IMG/VR virus record: IMGVR_UViG_2654587570_000002
Span: 1 to 35,662 of that record
Length of the DNA stretch: 35,662 nt
DNA from: a virus
Lineage: Duplodnaviria; Heunggongvirae; Uroviricota; Caudoviricetes
Strand: one strand, 5' to 3'
Numbering within the stretch: position 1 is the first letter of the stretch; each line of letters starts with the position of its first letter. Of this stretch, positions 1,128 through 27,249 are shown in pieces. Position numbers and translations under genes: made by a program. The notes beneath the pieces were generated by a model that ran no database searches, was not told where the DNA came from, and saw only the letters and a program-made list of their open reading frames with translations.

Positions 1128-1797
1128 AAAAAGACGGTTTAACCATCCATTAAAAATCGACGTGATTTTGTGCTTTCCGTATGAGGTGGCCAGCGTCATT
1201 TTTTAGTGAGAAATTCTGGTCAGGGGCGTTGGCTGAATGGTTATTTTATCGTGCCCATGCACAGGGAGGGGGCGGGTAAAATCTCTGGAGGTGATGCCTG
1301 TCAGGACCGCCGCCTGACCCTTCCTCACATCGCCGCAGGTTCGAAAACTTTTTTTGTGTCAGGTGTGCACGGAATTGATAGGTAAAACCTATATTAAAAA
1401 ATCACGGAAGCCGCGCCATTGCTGGATCAGTCAAAAATTCCACATCTCACGGCAGGCAAAAAAAGCGAATTTTGGGCCAGTTGAGGATAAAAAAGGGCTC
1501 ACTAGTTTTGCACATCCTGGTATCGGGGTCGTCAGCCTCCCGCCAGTAACCAGGTAACTAATCACGCTGGTGGGCATGATGCCGATGCCGGGATCTCGGT
1601 ATCGGTTTATCTGTGATCATCCACCAGCTTGATGACAGATAACAGGGAGTCATAACGATTAAAATTGTATATTTTTGCAGCAAACATTTTTAGCTACACG
1701 TTAAGCTATACGATTTTGAGTTTAAATTTTTTGTATTCAATTAAATCAAATGGTTATATGCACGTTTTGAATACTCTCGTGCCAAAAATCCCTTAAG

Positions 1798-1826
1798 AAC
1801 CAGCCTATTATGGCTGGTTTTTTTAT
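1798..1826 (+). terminator. rho-independent terminator-like hairpin followed by T7 run
   Basis: aaccagcc-tatta-tggctggtt followed by ttttttt; no convincing protein gene upstream on the + strand. Confidence 0.45.
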
Positions 1827-1992
1827 GATTGTTTTTTATGCGGAGAAATACCGGGGAATAATTGGGGTAAAACACCTTTAGGCTATTCACTTAGCCTACC
1901 ACCATCAAAATCTTTCCGAATGTATCCATCTCTTTTTTCTTATGCAGCTAAAACGAAGTCTTGATACTGTTTATTTACACAGATAAGAATAA

Positions 1993-2012
1993 TACTGTCT
2001 ACAAACGCAGTA
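1993..2012. promoter_or_regulatory. LexA (SOS) box-like palindrome upstream of the dinI-like remnant
   Basis: TACTGTCTACAAACGCAGTA fits TACTG-N10-CAGTA; sits 14 bp upstream of the ATG at 2026. Confidence 0.4.
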
Positions 2013-2025
2013 CAAAAGAAGTGTT

Positions 2026-2273
2026 ATGCGTATTGAGATCTCCATAACCAAAGACAAAATGACCAAATGCCAAATGGCGCTGTGGACGCGTTAAAGGAAG
2101 AGTTAACCCAACACATTGGCAAGCGTTATGACGATGTGGAGATGATCGTAAAAGCCACCAGCAACGATAGTTTTTCAGTTAGACATACTGCAGATAAAGA
2201 TTGAGCTAAAACTTTCGTTCAGGAAACTCTGAATGATACCTGAGAGTCTACTGAAGAGTTGTTTGTTCACTAG
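2026..2273 (+). pseudogene. dinI-family gene remnant (frameshifts and in-frame stops)
   Basis: ATG at 2026 gives [11 protein letters not shown] (DinI N-terminus is MRIEVTIAKTS as recalled), then similarity continues in another frame ([22 protein letters not shown]...SVRHTADKD) and after a stop in a third frame (AKTFVQETLNDT-ESTEELFV, compare DinI ...ILQETWESADDWFV). Confidence 0.6.
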
Positions 2274-2628
2274 TTAGCACGTAGGAAATCATTCAATACT
2301 CGCACTATCGGAAGTTCACCAGCCAGTCGTAGCACGTCCTTGCAAACGACGTGCCTACAATTTCAATCACCTCTCACCATCAGTTCTATCAATAATAATT
2401 AAACAGCGCCTAGACAAAATAAATAACAACAAGTCAACAACCTCGACAGGATGCCGATGGGATGATGAAGAGATAAGAAAGAATAACCAGTAAAGCCCTA
2501 AAACGTCAGCGTTCAGACGCGTTTTTTACTTAACCGGTAACAAATACGTTGTATCATAGCAGAATAAAATGATTGTTCTAAATCAGATTAACTCCTCACT
2601 TTTGTACAATGTCGCTTACAGGTATACC

Positions 2629-4518
2629 ATGAAATCCGAGACGCTAACTGTCCAACAACTTTTTCAAGACCGCCGACAATACTGTGTTCCATTCTATCAA
2701 CGTGCCTATGTATGGACTCAGCAAGACCAATGGTCAGCTCTACTGGAGGATATCCTAGAGAAAGCACAATCCCGGCTCTCGGGTACAAAACCAACTCCCC
2801 ATTTCCTTGGTGCGGTTGTACTGGAACCTCAATCAAAAAAAGGATTATTAGGTGTAGATTCCATACATATTATTGATGGTCAGCAACGATTGACCACTCT
2901 TCAATATGTTCTGGCATCCATCCGATTAGCATTACGTGCTACGGATCTTTCCAGCTTAGAGGCTCTCATTTCGCCTTGCCTGAAAAACTCAAACGAAGAC
3001 ACAATGCGAAATAAAGAAGTAGAACGCTTCAAACTGTGGCCAACTTTTCGGGATCAAACTCATTTTATTCAAAGTTTTAATGTTGAAAATATTGACGATC
3101 TCCGGGACGTATTCTCTGATAGTTTCACGCAGCATGGTACGTTGCGTAAGCGTTTTAATCACCCGCCATCACTAGAAGCATTATGTTTTTTTACTAAAGC
3201 CTTTATAAAATGGATTAAAATAGAAAACCACTCACCACAAGAAAATGCTGTAGCTCTAATTGAGGCTGTCTTAACAGATCTGAAACTGGTAAGCATATTT
3301 CTCGAAGCTGAAGATGATGCCCAAATAATTTTTGAAACATTAAATGGGCGAGGGGCGGAACTTCATGCTACGGATCTTATTCGCAACTATATCTTTATGT
3401 GCGCAGAGCATGAAAATATTAATGCTATTGAATTATATGAAAATGAGTGGAAGAGCTTTGAAGATAAATACTGGTCGGAAAAACAACGCCGTGGACGTAT
3501 TAATAAACCACGCATGGAGTGGCTAGTACATGCGACATTGCAATCAGAAAGGCAGCGTGAAATTGATCTGTCTCGCCTTTACAATGAGTATCGTGATTAT
3601 GTAAGTAAGGACTTGTCTTCACAACGAGCAGATCTGCAAGTAAAGCGCCTCAAACAATATGCATTACAATATAAAGAATTGGTTGATGGTTTTGGCACAA
3701 CCCCCATCTCACACTTTGGATATCGCATCGCAGACTATGATGTGACGACACTTTATCCGCTTGCTTTGTTCATTTCGATAGCTAACATCGCTGATGATGA
3801 GAAAGCAGCCATGTATAATGATCTTGTCTCCTACGTAGTACGAAGAGCCGTATGTGGCCTGACGCCAAAGAATTACAACAATGTATTTATGAATGTATTG
3901 CGGCACTTGGCTAAAACGGAAATTTCCAGTGTTGAGTTACGTAATATCCTCAATAACTTAAATGGCGAAGCCTCACGTTGGCCTGGTGACTCAGAATTTC
4001 TCAACGCTTGCATCAATGCTCCACTTTATCCTGGCAGGCTCGACGCACCGAAAATGCGCTCAATGTTAACGGAACTTGAAAGAGAACTTTGTCGCCAAGT
4101 GAAGACCGAAAAGCCTGATGTTCCAAATCTTTCTAATCTCGATATCGATCATCTTATGCCCCAAAGTTGGTATTCCTGTTGGCCTCTCGAAAATGGTCGT
4201 ATGGTGACAAATTCAGATGCTACGGTATTGAACCAAATTGTTCTGTCTGGAACCGATCTTACCCCTGAACAGCTACTGGTAAGGAAACGGCAACAAGCGA
4301 TAGCTACTTTGGGAAATCTAACTTTGCTTAACCTTAGCGTAAACCGTTCTGTTCAGAATGCTGTATTTCTGAAAAAACGTGATGCTCTCATCGTCCACAC
4401 CAATCTACGACTGAACATTCCACTTATAGTTAAGGATAAATGGGATGAGGATGAAATCCTGGAGCGGGGTAAAAATTTGGGGGAAATTGCATTGAAAGTA
4501 TGGCCAAAACACGATTAA
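2629..4518 (+). CDS. GmrSD-like type IV restriction-type nuclease (N-terminal DUF262/ParB-like domain, C-terminal DUF1524 His-Me finger domain)
   Basis: N-terminal FYQRAYVW and IIDGQQRLTTLQ (DGQQR motif); C-terminal LDIDHLMPQSW (DxDH motif); roughly 40% GC against higher-GC tail genes; ORF track opens at 2569 but the ATG at 2629 (MKSETLTVQQLF) is the more typical family start. Confidence 0.8.
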   Translation: MKSETLTVQQLFQDRRQYCVPFYQRAYVWTQQDQWSALLEDILEKAQSRLSGTKPTPHFLGAVVLEPQSKKGLLGVDSIHIIDGQQRLTTLQYVLASIRLALRATDLSSLEALISPCLKNSNEDTMRNKEVERFKLWPTFRDQTHFIQSFNVENIDDLRDVFSDSFTQHGTLRKRFNHPPSLEALCFFTKAFIKWIKIENHSPQENAVALIEAVLTDLKLVSIFLEAEDDAQIIFETLNGRGAELHATDLIRNYIFMCAEHENINAIELYENEWKSFEDKYWSEKQRRGRINKPRMEWLVHATLQSERQREIDLSRLYNEYRDYVSKDLSSQRADLQVKRLKQYALQYKELVDGFGTTPISHFGYRIADYDVTTLYPLALFISIANIADDEKAAMYNDLVSYVVRRAVCGLTPKNYNNVFMNVLRHLAKTEISSVELRNILNNLNGEASRWPGDSEFLNACINAPLYPGRLDAPKMRSMLTELERELCRQVKTEKPDVPNLSNLDIDHLMPQSWYSCWPLENGRMVTNSDATVLNQIVLSGTDLTPEQLLVRKRQQAIATLGNLTLLNLSVNRSVQNAVFLKKRDALIVHTNLRLNIPLIVKDKWDEDEILERGKNLGEIALKVWPKHD

Positions 4519-6220: not shown

Positions 6221-6696
6221 CAGGCAGCCCTCACGATATAATTAAAGGCAATGTTACGGGGTCGATTTTCGTTTGCAGTTGGAACAATTCTTGAAGCATC
6301 AAGGCCAATCACTTTTGGGTAAACACCGCCCTCGGACCTTTCTGTCACCATACTTCTGACTAAGGAGAAATAACTATTGTTCGTTGAGGGGTTCAAAGGC
6401 ACCACTGCCCCCTTAAACGAGCCTACTGATTCCCATATTGAATAATTTTCGGTGTTTACAGTCTTGAACTCACCATAGATATTACGTATGGCATCGCCCT
6501 GAGCGGATAATATTGTTCTCCCCGCATCCGCACTACGCCCATCATCCCAGCCACGAATAAATTCACCGCGTAAATCAGGCAATTTATTTGTCGGGTAAGC
6601 CTTTGCCAGTTCCGGGTATTCTTCAGCAGAAAAAGCCGCACCATTGCATTTCAGCCAGCCTGTCGGCGGAGTGGCGGAAGGCCACGGAACAGGCAC
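6220..6696 (-). CDS. tail-fibre C-terminal variable domain with phage tail-collar motif; currently in the -1 frame relative to the constant N-terminal part
   Basis: [35 protein letters not shown]...LPDLRGEF fits the tail-collar domain pattern; track start is a GTG; frame differs from ORF 6651-7019. Confidence 0.7.
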
Positions 6697-23994: not shown

Positions 23995-24345
23995 TTACTT
24001 CAGCCGTTCACGGGCCGTCTTCGCCTTATGACACAGCCAGCACAGACTCTGCAGATTACTGTCGGCATCAGAGCCGCCATGCGCTTTAGGAATGATGTGG
24101 TCAACGGTTTTCGCCTCACGCACCACACCAGCACGCAGACATAACTGACATAAACCTTTATCACGCTTCAGCACACGCGCGCGGATAACATCCCACTTCG
24201 AACCATAGCCGCGCTGGTGACGGGATTGTCCTGGCTTGTATTGTTTCCAGCCTTCGCTTTTGTGGCTTTCGCAGTAGCCTGACGGGTCAGTCGTGGTATT
24301 GCGGCAGCCGCGAACGCGGCAGGCTTTTGGGATTCTAGGGGGCAT
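23995..24345 (-). CDS. HNH endonuclease (terminase-associated)
   Basis: Cys-rich N-terminus and DHIIPKAHGGSDADSNLQSLCWLCH HNH motif; immediately upstream of small terminase. Confidence 0.85.
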   Translation of the reverse strand: MPPRIPKACRVRGCRNTTTDPSGYCESHKSEGWKQYKPGQSRHQRGYGSKWDVIRARVLKRDKGLCQLCLRAGVVREAKTVDHIIPKAHGGSDADSNLQSLCWLCHKAKTARERLK

Positions 24346-24395
24346 ATAAAAAATTTATAATAAGTAAAATAATAAAGAAAAATGCTCAAAGGCAA

Positions 24396-24950
24396 TTATC
24401 TTGACTCAAATACAAATCTAGAAGAGATGAGCTTATCAAGCATTTTCATAAGTAAATCCTTACTCTCACCACCATTTATATATTTATTAAAGTTAGACTC
24501 GAACTCATGCCAAACTTTTTCTAACTCAGTATTATCAAATAAGTGCTCTGTCGCAAACCATGAAGATTGGCAACAATCGAAAATACTCAAAAGCTCATCA
24601 AATCTTTTAACATTCTCTTCTCCCAACTCAATTTGCTGACTAATAAGATCTACATCTTTAAATAGCCATTTCGCAATAACTTGCTCTCGTTCATCATTGA
24701 GTTGCTCGGGGTCAATATTGACAGGCATAAATAATAGAGCTGTCTTTAATTTCTTTAATGCATTCCTAAAATCTATTTTTACTTTTGTTTTCTCTTGTTC
24801 CCTCCACGTAAATAATGCCTTGAACGCCAAAAACAAAGTAACAATAGTAGCTCCAGCACTCACCCAAGATGCAATCATTGCCCAACAAGCCCACTCAGCA
24901 GCAGCACGGTTTGCTACAAGTGTCTCATATGCAATATAATTTTCGTTCAT
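24396..24950 (-). CDS. hypothetical membrane-anchored protein (184 aa) encoded on an AT-rich moron
   Basis: Strong RBS (GAGGTAAAA-ATG), N-terminal hydrophobic helix (WACWAMIASWVSAGATIVTLFLAF), roughly 30% GC island, palindrome CTCACTATTAACAGTGAG just upstream of the RBS. Confidence 0.55.
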   Translation of the reverse strand: MNENYIAYETLVANRAAAEWACWAMIASWVSAGATIVTLFLAFKALFTWREQEKTKVKIDFRNALKKLKTALLFMPVNIDPEQLNDEREQVIAKWLFKDVDLISQQIELGEENVKRFDELLSIFDCCQSSWFATEHLFDNTELEKVWHEFESNFNKYINGGESKDLLMKMLDKLISSRFVFESR

Positions 24951-25027
24951 TTTTACCTCACTGTTAATAGTGAGAGTATTGTAACTAAAAGCATAATAAC
25001 TAGAACAGTCAAATAAAAATATTTCAC

Positions 25028-25306
25028 CTAATGAATATTATTATTCAAATGCAGATTGTACTTTTGCTCTCCTAACCTACGAAGATCAGACTTATCACGG
25101 TTACATAGCCCCAGTGCTGATAGCAGACTTACATTCAAACTAAGACTATCCCCATAAGTCAGAGGATTGGGTATAACTGGCTGTGGAGTTTCAGCGAGCA
25201 GGTTCGCCGGTAACGGTATCGTTGGAACCTGCACGTATACTGTCCGCGTACTTCCGCAACCGGTCAGCAGCGACATCAGGCACAGGGCGTGAAGCGCAAT
25301 CATCAT
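25028..25306 (-). CDS. Rz1-like o-spanin lipoprotein (overlapping Rz in another frame)
   Basis: MMIALHALCLMSLLTGC lipobox followed by Pro-rich sequence; embedded in and extending past the Rz gene. Confidence 0.5.
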   Translation of the reverse strand: MMIALHALCLMSLLTGCGSTRTVYVQVPTIPLPANLLAETPQPVIPNPLTYGDSLSLNVSLLSALGLCNRDKSDLRRLGEQKYNLHLNNNIH

Positions 25307-25583
25307 CCGCAACAGCCACTTTGATATCTTCCTGGGTTCTCTGTGACTCCAGTGCGATCTGCTGTTTTGCATGCTGGTTAGCCTCCAAAACTGTATTGAC
25401 GATTTGCATTGATTGCAGGACGTTATTGGTAATGGCAGTTGCTGATTCAGCATTTTGTAAAGCCTCATCAGCACGTTTCTTTTCGTACTGATATTTGCTG
25501 TAGTAGTAGTTGGCTGACCAGATGAAAGAACCAATGGCAGTAACGAAAAAAGCAGCGATAATCAGCTTATAACTCAACTTCAT
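25191..25583 (-). CDS. Rz-like i-spanin
   Basis: N-terminal TM helix then coiled-coil; follows the endolysin with overlap. Confidence 0.7.
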   Translation of the reverse strand: MKLSYKLIIAAFFVTAIGSFIWSANYYYSKYQYEKKRADEALQNAESATAITNNVLQSMQIVNTVLEANQHAKQQIALESQRTQEDIKVAVADDDCASRPVPDVAADRLRKYADSIRAGSNDTVTGEPAR

Positions 25584-26459: not shown

Positions 26460-27249
26460 TTATTTCCCCACCAGTTCACTTACCTCTTTCACTGTCTGGT
26501 TAAACCGATCTGACTCAAGCTCAACACCTAACGCCCGACGCCCCAGCTCCATTGCTGCTTTTATTGTGGAACCAGATCCCATAAAAAAATCAGCAACCAG
26601 ATCACCTGGTCGACTACTGGCATTGATTATTTGCCGGAGCATATCCGCCGGTTTCTCACACGGATGTTTACCCGGGTAGAACTGAACGGGTTTATGCGTC
26701 CAGACATCGGTATAAGGCACGGAGACTGATACGGAGAAATAGCGCCGGAGAGATTTAAACTCATCCAGCAATTCAGAATATTTGCGATTCAGTGAATCAT
26801 AAGATGCCACCAGCTGGTGGTGTGTCTGTTCCAGTTGTTGTTCCTGAAACTTCTCTGCCGCTATACGGGAAAACAGTGCCTGCAACTTCCGGTAGTCAGC
26901 CTCATTCGGCAACTGCCACTGACTGGCACCAAACCAGTGGGAAACCATGTTTTTCTTACCAGTGTTCACGCATCATGATCTCGATATCAGATGCCAGGCG
27001 ATGTCCACAGAACAGGTAAAGGCTTCCGGCAGGTTTCAGCACCCGCCAGAACTGAGCCAGACAGTGGTCCAGCCACTTAAGGTAATCTTCGTCCCCTTTC
27101 CACTGATTGTCCCAACCGTTGGGCTTCACTTTGAAGTACGGCGGATCGGTAACTATCAGGTCAATGGAATCATCAGGCAGGGACTGAATAAAATGCAGGC
27201 AATCAGCGTTGATTAAATCAACACTGTTTATTTTTACAGTATTTTTCAT
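26460..27249 (-). pseudogene. beta-class DNA methyltransferase (motif IV DPPY then motif I FxGxG), split into two ORFs by a frameshift
   Basis: ORF 26956-27249 has IDLIVTDPPYF; ORF 26460-26969 has DLVADFFMGSGSTIKAA; the two overlap by 14 nt in different frames. Confidence 0.65.

What the first reader, a model, noticed from the sequence alone, without database searches (positions are those of the whole stretch)
24346..25027. AT-rich single-gene moron between the lysis cassette and the HNH/terminase genes
A roughly 30% GC island carries one gene (24396-24950) with a strong RBS, a single N-terminal TM helix and a ~150-aa cytoplasmic domain with no motif I recognise. A perfect palindrome CTCACTATTAACAGTGAG lies just upstream of the RBS. 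The position corresponds to where lambda carries bor, a classic slot for lysogenic-conversion or exclusion genes. A membrane-anchored protein of unknown family here is a reasonable abortive-infection or superinfection-exclusion candidate.
Basis: partly seen in the sequence, partly recalled or inferred. Interest (0 to 1): 0.65.

Follow-up and report, generated by a model that had tools for sequence, protein, structure and literature searches.

The report
Prophage moron encoding orphan membrane-anchored protein
An AT-rich, single-gene add-on in an E. coli prophage encodes a membrane-anchored protein of an uncharacterised family; it is optional cargo of the kind that often protects lysogens from other phages, but no function could be shown.

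Summary
Window 24346-25027 is the lowest-GC stretch of the window (0.33 against a median of 0.53). It carries one gene (24396-24950, minus strand, 184 aa) between Rz1/lysC and HNH-terminase.

It is optional cargo:
- Only 28 of 5426 complete E. coli genomes carry it.
- Related prophages have this slot empty or filled with unrelated AT-rich genes.
- Homologs (phrog_6169, Enterobacterales prophages only) sit in the same slot next to unrelated terminases, and once between tail genes.
- Most homologs have their own intrinsic terminator. The window copy has none.

The "perfect palindrome" is imperfect (16 of 18 positions) and overlaps the ribosome-binding site. As RNA it is a hairpin that sequesters that site. 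The hairpin is conserved with compensatory changes in 14 of 16 homolog leaders and lies next to a conserved TAnAAT.

The protein is predicted to have its N-terminus outside and its C-terminus inside the cell: one TM helix plus a cytoplasmic helical bundle (AlphaFold pLDDT 90). It has no significant match in Pfam, NCBIfam, PADLOC, PDB or BFVD. Its N-terminal anchor also occurs fused to other C-terminal domains.

The moron reading is well supported. The defence role (abortive infection or exclusion) is plausible but untested.

The parts
24346..25027 (.). AT-rich cargo island (GC 0.327) filling the slot between the HNH start codon and the lysC/Rz1 stop codon
   Evidence: Composition. Homology with an empty-slot prophage ends exactly at the HNH ATG on one side and at the 3' end of lysC on the other. 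The island is present in 28 of 5426 complete E. coli genomes, while the flanks are in 2365.
24396..24950 (-). CDS of 184 aa: N-out/C-in single-pass membrane protein with a cytoplasmic helical bundle; member of phrog_6169 (unknown function)
   Evidence: ORF. phrog_6169 E=1.3e-74. Homologs. 8 synonymous against 4 non-synonymous variant sites and no stop codons among 6 alleles. Topology. AlphaFold model pLDDT 90.1.
24954..24978 (-). RNA hairpin (9 pairs, one bulge, -9.1 kcal/mol) whose 3' arm is the Shine-Dalgarno sequence; it contains the imperfect palindrome 24957-24974
   Evidence: Folding. The same SD-sequestering hairpin is the MFE structure in 14 of 16 distinct homolog leaders, with compensatory and G-U changes in the flanking pairs. 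It ranks 3rd of 54 prophage genes for SD pairing probability.
24956..24959 (-). Shine-Dalgarno GAGG, 5 nt upstream of the ATG
   Evidence: Read from the sequence.
24978..24983 (-). -10-like hexamer TACAAT abutting the hairpin; candidate promoter element of the cassette
   Evidence: TAnAAT is conserved at this place in 13 of the 16 homolog leaders (three carry GATAAT, GATAAA or GCTAAT instead), with only position 3 varying. The consensus promoter scan did not call it, because there is no acceptable -35.
24993..24998 (-). TATTAT, the degenerate counterpart of the GATAAT that ends the 42-nt palindromic element found upstream of many homologs
   Evidence: Alignment by eye of the window leader with L002/L016. 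The full element is absent from the window.
24346..24395 (-). 50-bp 3' spacer (GC 0.16) without an intrinsic terminator, running straight into the HNH start codon, which here has no Shine-Dalgarno
   Evidence: 16 of 18 homolog loci have a canonical terminator at this place.
25028..25306 (-). Flank: Rz1-like o-spanin lysC, the last gene of the lysis cassette
   Evidence: RefSeq annotation of the 99.7% identical locus.
23995..24345 (-). Flank: HNH endonuclease preceding the P27-family small terminase

Best explanation
The island is a moron: optional, horizontally acquired cargo inserted in the lysis-terminase slot of a lambdoid-type E. coli prophage with an HK97-like head and a Mu-like tail.

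Its product is a small inner-membrane protein. It has an acidic N-terminal tail of ~20 aa in the periplasm, one TM helix, and a cytoplasmic helical bundle of ~140 aa.

The most likely role is a single-gene anti-phage function made in the lysogen, of the abortive-infection type. In this model the variable cytoplasmic bundle senses a product of an infecting phage, and the conserved anchor then oligomerises and compromises the membrane.

Translation is held down by a conserved hairpin that pairs the Shine-Dalgarno sequence with an upstream CCUC.

Shown: the cargo status, the cassette architecture in homologs, the predicted topology and fold, the conserved hairpin, and purifying selection. Inferred: expression from its own promoter in the lysogen, the defence role, and the sensing-and-permeabilising mechanism. 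My confidence that it is a moron is about 0.85. My confidence in the anti-phage abortive-infection mechanism is about 0.3. The figure below is for the whole statement.
For: Cargo status:
- The island is in 28 of 5426 genomes, while its flanks are in 2365.
- In the same backbone the slot is empty or holds unrelated genes of GC 0.34-0.39.
- The island is the lowest-GC segment of the window.

Cassette architecture:
- Homologs occupy the same slot beside GpA-type, Terminase_2/3-type and P27/HNH-type terminases.
- One homolog sits between the tail tube and tape-measure genes.
- 16 of 18 homolog loci have an intrinsic terminator at the stop codon.
- A TAnAAT hexamer is conserved in 13 of the 16 homolog leaders, and an SD hairpin with covariation in 14 of them.

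A real protein:
- 8 synonymous against 4 non-synonymous variant sites.
- 122 family representatives at 50% identity.
- AlphaFold pLDDT 90.1.

Topology: the K/R-rich flank is on the C-side in 28 of 29 members.

Hints towards defence:
- The N-terminal anchor is fused to at least three unrelated kinds of cytoplasmic C-terminal domain, all in the same prophage slots. A constant effector with variable sensors is a pattern seen in conflict systems.
- The same prophage carries a known defence gene in another AT-rich cargo slot: a type IV restriction enzyme at 2569-4518, PADLOC 1407 bits.
- The archetypal moron, HK97 gene 15, encodes a small inner-membrane exclusion protein (PMC3594210).
Against: - There is no significant similarity to any defence family. 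The best PADLOC hit has E=0.02 and the NCBIfam SLATT_1 hit scores 16.4 bits against a cut-off of 41. Both are probably driven by the TM helix.
- Fold searches return only generic helical bundles.
- The window copy has no terminator and no acceptable -35, and the promoter scan finds nothing here. It may therefore be transcribed mainly as part of the late operon, which fits a lytic-cycle role as well as a lysogenic one.
- The known defence gene lies more than 20 kb away, so its presence is weak support.
- No expression or phenotype data exist.
Confidence: 0.35

Rival explanations
1. It is a superinfection-exclusion protein at the inner membrane, working like HK97 gp15 or P22 SieA. The conserved periplasmic tail and TM helix would interfere with the channel that incoming phage tails or ejection proteins form, blocking genome entry without killing the cell.
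For: - It has the same architecture and predicted orientation as HK97 gp15: an N-terminal TM, a positively charged C-side and a helical cytoplasmic tail.
- gp15 is a moron product that blocks infection from the inner membrane (PMC3594210).
- The most widely conserved part of the superfamily is the periplasmic tail plus TM helix.
- One homolog sits in a tail-operon moron slot next to the one gp15 occupies in HK97: before the tail-chaperone genes rather than after them.
Against: - There is no sequence relationship to gp15 (hhalign probability 0.1%).
- A conserved 140-aa cytoplasmic bundle, and its replacement by other cytoplasmic domains, is not needed for a simple entry block.
- Some members have almost no periplasmic tail.
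Confidence: 0.2
2. It is a lytic-cycle accessory gene expressed with the lysis cassette, for example a modulator of holin timing (antiholin-like) or of envelope disruption. In this reading it is transcribed by late read-through rather than in the lysogen.
For: - It lies directly after Rz/Rz1 on the same strand, with no terminator on either side in the window.
- It is a membrane protein.
- SD sequestration would suit a dose-sensitive late product.
Against: - Related prophages with the same lysis genes have the slot empty.
- Homologs accompany three different holin families.
- Most homologs are insulated by their own terminator, and in L002 a terminator also lies upstream.
- One homolog lies among tail genes.
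- There are no hits to holin, antiholin or spanin families.
- Its orientation is opposite to that of i-spanins (plus textbook Rz topology).
Confidence: 0.12
3. It is a lysogenic-conversion factor that benefits the host in ways unrelated to phages, such as envelope stress, colonisation or serum resistance, as with lambda bor and lom.
For: - It occupies the slot where lambda carries bor (textbook knowledge).
- Other cargo in the same slot includes a GrlR-like regulator and predicted lipoproteins.
- It is found in commensal, ETEC, APEC and Salmonella lysogens.
Against: - The bulk of the protein is cytoplasmic, so it is not surface exposed.
- There is no similarity to any virulence or stress family.
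- A constant anchor with interchangeable C-terminal domains is not typical of such factors.
Confidence: 0.15
4. It is a non-functional or decaying hitch-hiker ORF in junk AT-rich DNA.
For: - The window copy has lost the terminator and the upstream 42-nt element that homologs carry.
- Truncated copies exist.
Against: - The ORF is intact in 50 viral-contig loci, with an excess of synonymous variation.
- The family spans down to ~30% identity with conserved motifs.
- The predicted fold is confident.
Confidence: 0.03

Closest known systems
Morons of lambdoid phages (Juhala/Hendrix definition; HK97 gene 15 as archetype)
   Same: It is extra DNA relative to sibling phages, with deviating GC. It is a single gene co-oriented with the late operon. 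In the family it has a promoter-like element upstream and an intrinsic terminator downstream, and it occurs in both the lysis-terminase slot and a tail-operon slot.
   Different: The window copy has no terminator and only a -10-like hexamer. The family also carries a conserved SD-sequestering hairpin, which is not part of the moron definition.
HK97 gp15 superinfection-exclusion protein
   Same: It is a small inner-membrane protein with an N-terminal TM helix, a positively charged cytoplasmic side and a helical C-terminal part, encoded by a moron.
   Different: gp15 is 62 aa against 184 aa here, and there is no detectable homology (hhalign probability 0.1%). No exclusion phenotype has been tested for this protein.
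Membrane-acting abortive-infection effectors (lambda RexB, P22/lambda SieB, SLATT-type TM effectors)
   Same: It is prophage-borne and membrane-embedded, with a cytoplasmic helical part. The superfamily shows a constant membrane module with variable partner domains.
   Different: It has one TM helix, not two to four. No family model reaches significance (SLATT_1 scores 16.4 bits against a cut-off of 41; no SieB or RexB hit). No partner gene is conserved next to it.
lambda bor (gene downstream of Rz in lambda)
   Same: It occupies the equivalent genomic slot, downstream of the spanin genes and before the packaging genes, and is accessory cargo.
   Different: bor is an outer-membrane lipoprotein on the opposite strand. 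This gene encodes an inner-membrane protein on the late-operon strand. There is no sequence relationship.
phrog_6169 (PHROGs v4, unknown function)
   Same: The match is full length (E=1.3e-74), so the protein family is already catalogued.
   Different: The catalogue entry has no function, structure or literature.

Membership tests
Moron (independent cargo unit in a phage late operon) | Extra DNA that is absent from closely related phages | tested here: met
   Related E. coli prophages have HNH and lysC 26 bp apart, or hold other cargo. The island is in 28 of 5426 genomes, the flanks in 2365.
Moron (independent cargo unit in a phage late operon) | Base composition different from the surrounding genes | tested here: met
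   GC is 0.327 against 0.47-0.56 in the flanks. It is the lowest 682-bp stretch in the window.
Moron (independent cargo unit in a phage late operon) | Own promoter | tested here: inconclusive
   TAnAAT is conserved next to the leader hairpin across homologs, and many homologs also have a 42-nt element ending in TGnGATAAT. In the window no acceptable -35 is present and the consensus scan calls nothing. No TSS data are available.
Moron (independent cargo unit in a phage late operon) | Own transcription terminator | tested here: not met
   The window has 50 bp of AT-rich spacer with no hairpin before the HNH ATG. By contrast, 16 of 18 homolog loci have a canonical intrinsic terminator at the stop codon.
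Moron (independent cargo unit in a phage late operon) | Expression from the repressed prophage | not testable with these tools
   This needs RNA-seq or TSS mapping of a lysogen.
Known anti-phage defence systems (PADLOC-DB v2) | Significant match to a defence protein model | tested here: not met
   The best hit for the window protein is CARF_TM at E=0.021. Among 29 family members each model matches only a single member, best E=0.0013.
SLATT (2-TM effector domain, NF033634) | Score above the curated cut-off and two TM helices | tested here: not met
   The score is 16.4 bits against a cut-off of 41. Only one hydrophobic helix is predicted.
HK97 gp15-type superinfection exclusion | Sequence homology to gp15 | tested here: not met
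   hhalign of the family profile against HK97 gp15 gives probability 0.1%.
HK97 gp15-type superinfection exclusion | Block of genome entry by superinfecting phage | not testable with these tools
   This is a phenotype and needs plating and injection assays.
Lysis proteins (holin, antiholin, spanin) | Match to a holin or spanin family; for i-spanins, N-in/C-out topology with a partner o-spanin | tested here: not met
   There are no such Pfam or NCBIfam hits. The predicted orientation is N-out/C-in. The phage already has Rz and Rz1. Related phages lack the gene.
phrog_6169 | Full-length profile match | tested here: met
   E=1.3e-74, residues 15-183 on profile positions 2-165 of 165.

The most novel reading that the evidence does not exclude
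The gene belongs to a polymorphic class of single-gene prophage immunity proteins. In this class a constant N-out membrane anchor (MDADLISYE..A..WAFW plus a TM helix) is fused to interchangeable cytoplasmic sensor domains: a helical bundle here, and a beta-rich or short helical domain elsewhere. The genes spread as autonomous cassettes into late-operon slots. They are driven by a widespread 42-nt palindromic promoter/operator element and kept at low dose by an SD-sequestering leader hairpin. On sensing an invading phage the anchor would permeabilise the membrane.
Probability: 0.2. Interest if true: 0.7.

Novelty: new member of a known kind. Interest (0 to 1): 0.45.

Why it matters
Prophage cargo slots are a productive place to find new anti-phage genes. 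This one holds an orphan membrane protein with a confident predicted fold, a modular anchor shared with other domains, and a conserved translational control hairpin. If it does exclude phages, it would add a compact single-gene membrane system. It would also point to dozens of sister cargos in the same slot as candidates. If it does not, it is one more uncharacterised moron. The comparative work also defines a clean test bed: natural prophage variants whose slot is empty, filled with this gene, or filled with other cargo.

Tried and rejected
- **Sequence families.** Pfam, NCBIfam, PADLOC and PDB sequence searches gave only sub-threshold, TM-driven noise. This held for the single protein and for 10- and 29-member profiles.
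- **Conserved partner gene.** The small ORFs upstream of homologs are unrelated to one another, so this is a single-gene unit.
- **Own transcript with an open SD.** I tested the idea that a transcript starting about 7 nt after TAnAAT would lack the anti-SD arm and so have a free SD. Folding gave only a weak shift in mean SD pairing, from 0.68 to 0.56, and some homologs went the other way. The idea is not supported well enough to claim.
- **Antisense promoter.** The promoter-like hit on the plus strand (24911-24940, 10 of 12 matches) arises from the N-Y-I codons and is not conserved in homologs. I judged it chance.
- **RNA families.** Rfam has no match for the leader hairpin or the 42-nt element.
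- **Literature.** Nothing was found for WP_001005132, phrog_6169 or the 17-mer core, and nothing in the DefensePredictor supplements. GiPD474, the Gifsy defence protein, is an ATPase and unrelated.
- **Other collections.** There are no plasmid copies. Only one deposited phage carries the gene, Salmonella phage 118970_sal3.
- **Spanin reading.** Rejected on topology, on the absence of a partner, and on the presence of Rz/Rz1.

Full report
**What is in the sequence**

Window 24346-25027 has GC 0.327. The CDS is 0.351, the upstream spacer 0.26 and the downstream spacer 0.16. The window as a whole is 0.514, and this is the lowest-GC 682-bp stretch in it.

The island holds one credible ORF, 24396-24950 on the minus strand, 184 aa. 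A GAGG lies 5 nt before the ATG. The neighbours on the same strand are:
- upstream, holin, endolysin, Rz (25191-25583) and Rz1/lysC (25028-25306);
- downstream, an HNH endonuclease (23995-24345), a P27-family small terminase and the large terminase.

The window is 99.7% identical here to E. coli chromosomal prophages with an HK97-like head and a Mu-like tail, integrated at tRNA-Thr next to proA.

It has 6-bp arms and a central TTAA with one A/C mismatch. It also overlaps the SD rather than lying upstream of it.

**It is optional cargo in a polymorphic slot**

- The island is present in 28 of 5426 complete E. coli genomes, while its flanks are in 2365.
- I searched with the two flanks joined together. 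This found sibling prophages in which HNH and lysC are 26 bp apart, so the slot is empty.
- Other siblings carry about 400 bp with no ORF, a GrlR-like gene, a 124-aa gene on the other strand, or unrelated 168- and 169-aa genes.
- Those four cargo genes have GC 0.34-0.39, and none has a PADLOC hit or a named PHROG function.
- Homology with the empty-slot phage stops exactly at the HNH ATG on one side and at the 3' end of lysC on the other.

The gene is therefore dispensable for lytic growth, and the slot behaves as a cargo hotspot.

**The gene family and its cassette**

- The protein matches phrog_6169 (unknown function) at E=1.3e-74.
- A word-indexed search found 13 clusters in Citrobacter, Enterobacter, Klebsiella, Kluyvera, Kosakonia, Serratia and Salmonella.
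- An exhaustive profile search found 122 representatives at 50% identity, 130-200 aa long.
- It is in one deposited phage (Salmonella phage 118970_sal3) and in no plasmid.
- In the homolog loci whose neighbours were examined, the gene lies after the lysis genes (Rz/Rz1 where they could be identified) and before the small terminase, on the late-operon strand. The terminases there are of unrelated types: GpA/Nu1-like, Terminase_2/3 and P27+HNH.
- In one locus (L066) it lies between the tail-tube gene and the tail-chaperone/tape-measure genes, the stretch of the tail operon that holds the HK97 gene 15 moron (which lies after the chaperones).
- 16 of 18 distinct homolog loci have a canonical intrinsic terminator overlapping or just after the stop codon, for example TAACCGCCTACGGGCGGTTTTTT.
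- The window copy has no terminator. Fifty AT-rich bases lead straight to the HNH ATG, which here has no SD.
- Among close alleles, 8 variant sites are synonymous and 4 are not, and no allele has a stop codon. The ORF is under purifying selection.

**The leader**

- In 14 of 16 distinct homolog leaders the minimum-energy structure is a hairpin whose 3' arm is the SD, paired to an upstream CCUC-like arm.
- The core pairs are fixed by the SD. The flanking pairs change in a compensatory way (A-U, U-A, G-C, C-G and G-U), which favours an RNA structure over a DNA operator.
- The window hairpin (24978-24954, minus strand) has 9 pairs and -9.1 kcal/mol. It ranks 3rd of 54 genes of this prophage for SD pairing.
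- A hexamer TAnAAT abuts the hairpin. T1, A2, A4, A5 and T6 are conserved and position 3 varies, as in real -10 elements. In the window it is TACAAT at 24983-24978.
- There is no acceptable -35, and the consensus scan reports no promoter here.
- I tested the idea that a transcript starting after this hexamer would lack the anti-SD arm and so translate freely. Folding gave only a small shift in mean SD pairing, 0.68 to 0.56. I do not claim it.

The hairpin is best described as a conserved translational attenuator whose control is unknown.

**The protein**

- Hydropathy gives one TM helix, at about residues 25-43.
- In 28 of 29 family members the C-side flank carries 2-6 K/R, more than the 0-2 on the N-side; the remaining member has 2 on each side. 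This predicts N-out/C-in topology.
- AlphaFold with a 10-sequence alignment gave pLDDT 75. With 29 sequences it gave pLDDT 90.1 and pTM 0.70. The model is a continuous helix 3-73 (tail, TM and a charged juxtamembrane segment containing the near-invariant W49-x2-Q-E-x2-K), a conserved Pro76 turn, and then helices 81-97, 101-138, 142-158 and 164-176 packed as a bundle.
- The best sequence-level hints are SLATT_1 (16.4 bits, cut-off 41) and CARF_TM (E=0.02). Both are sub-threshold and lie over the TM region.
- The N-terminal 40-45 residues (MDADLISYE..A..WAFW plus the TM helix) recur on proteins with quite different C-terminal domains: a beta-rich domain (phrog_16957) and short helical domains. 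These also sit in the same prophage slot.

**Mechanism**

What is shown:
- It is a mobile, selected, single-gene cargo cassette.
- It encodes a membrane-anchored cytoplasmic bundle.
- It has a conserved SD-masking leader.

What is inferred:
- It is made in the lysogen and acts against other phages.

I favour an abortive-infection design: a variable cytoplasmic sensor on a constant membrane anchor that oligomerises. The reasons are that the variable part is cytoplasmic and the constant part is the anchor. Exclusion at the membrane, as with HK97 gp15, is the next best reading.

A lysis-timing role is less likely for three reasons:
- the slot can be empty;
- the holin families next to homologs differ;
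- most homologs are insulated by their own terminator (in L002 a terminator also lies upstream), and one sits among tail genes.

The window copy weakens the lysogen-expression claim. It has lost the terminator and most of the upstream element, so late read-through may be its main source of mRNA.

**Comparison with known systems**

It meets the moron criteria of extra DNA and deviant GC (PMC3594210). It is inconclusive on the promoter criterion and fails the terminator criterion in this copy. It is not a member of any named defence, exclusion or lysis family that I could test. It works most like HK97 gp15 or the membrane-acting abortive-infection proteins, but only by architecture.

**Verdict**

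This is a real feature, correctly spotted. It is a new member of a known kind: a moron with an orphan membrane protein. Its function is unproven and its interest is moderate. The slot-wide cargo diversity, the modular anchor and the 42-nt element seen in relatives are the parts most worth following up.

Noticed in passing
Not in the window; L002, L016, L042, L059, L065, L066 about 60-100 nt upstream of the homolog start; L062 5018-5059; L005 about 6575-6620; L068 (DH5alpha phi80 remnant) 2501-2539: A discrete 42-nt element, AAGGCATTACAGCAGGCATTCACTGAGTGCCTGTGATAATGC, was found. Across 111 distinct contexts conservation is confined to these 42 nt and falls to zero on both sides. The element ends in TGnGATAAT, which resembles an extended -10. 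In 77 loci it is followed by at least 39 unrelated cargo ORF families. It folds as a 17-bp interrupted hairpin (-24 kcal/mol, z=-5), and its arms covary. There is no Rfam match and no paper containing the 17-mer. It could be a shared moron promoter/operator, an RNA processing hairpin, or a recombination linker for the lysis-terminase cargo slot. In some phages the element plus a terminator-like hairpin directly precedes the small terminase gene with no cargo.
   Followed up: partly
window 2569-4518 (+): A full-length type IV methyl-directed restriction enzyme (GmrSD-like, DUF262/DUF1524 type; PADLOC mREase_IV, 1407 bits) lies in a second low-GC region (about 0.37-0.40, roughly 1350-3900) beyond the tail-fibre end of the prophage. 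This region differs from the otherwise near-identical prophage in NZ_AP027865.
   Followed up: partly
window about 26963 (between ORFs 26460-26969 and 26956-27249, minus strand): The prophage DNA methyltransferase between the antiterminator and the holin has a 263-bp internal deletion relative to the intact 350-aa copy in NZ_AP027865. This shifts the frame and splits the gene into two ORFs, so it is probably a pseudogene.
   Followed up: yes
window 24346-24360, upstream of the HNH start at 24345 (minus strand): Because the cargo abuts the HNH ATG, the HNH gene has no Shine-Dalgarno here; the sequence is TTATAAATTTTTTATATG. Empty-slot relatives have AGGAA at the usual distance. The insertion may therefore have changed HNH translation.
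   Followed up: no
L015 6001-6534; proteins P0013, P0098, P0107, P0126, P0128, P0133, P0134, P0115; 7 cargo ORFs in the L071-L190 set, e.g. in L100: A sister family (phrog_16957, unknown function) shares the target's first 40-45 residues (periplasmic tail plus TM helix) but has an unrelated beta-rich cytoplasmic domain with a conserved LP.KLEHGE motif. It occupies the same lysis-terminase slot.
   Followed up: partly
L013 1008-1517 and L085 (cargo after the 42-nt element): The 169-aa cargo that replaces the target gene in some E. coli prophages (phrog_18591, MERFIKSIESS...WLAALFMALAMPDIC...) recurs after the 42-nt element in other viral contigs. Different phages therefore draw on the same pool of cargo genes for this slot.
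   Followed up: no
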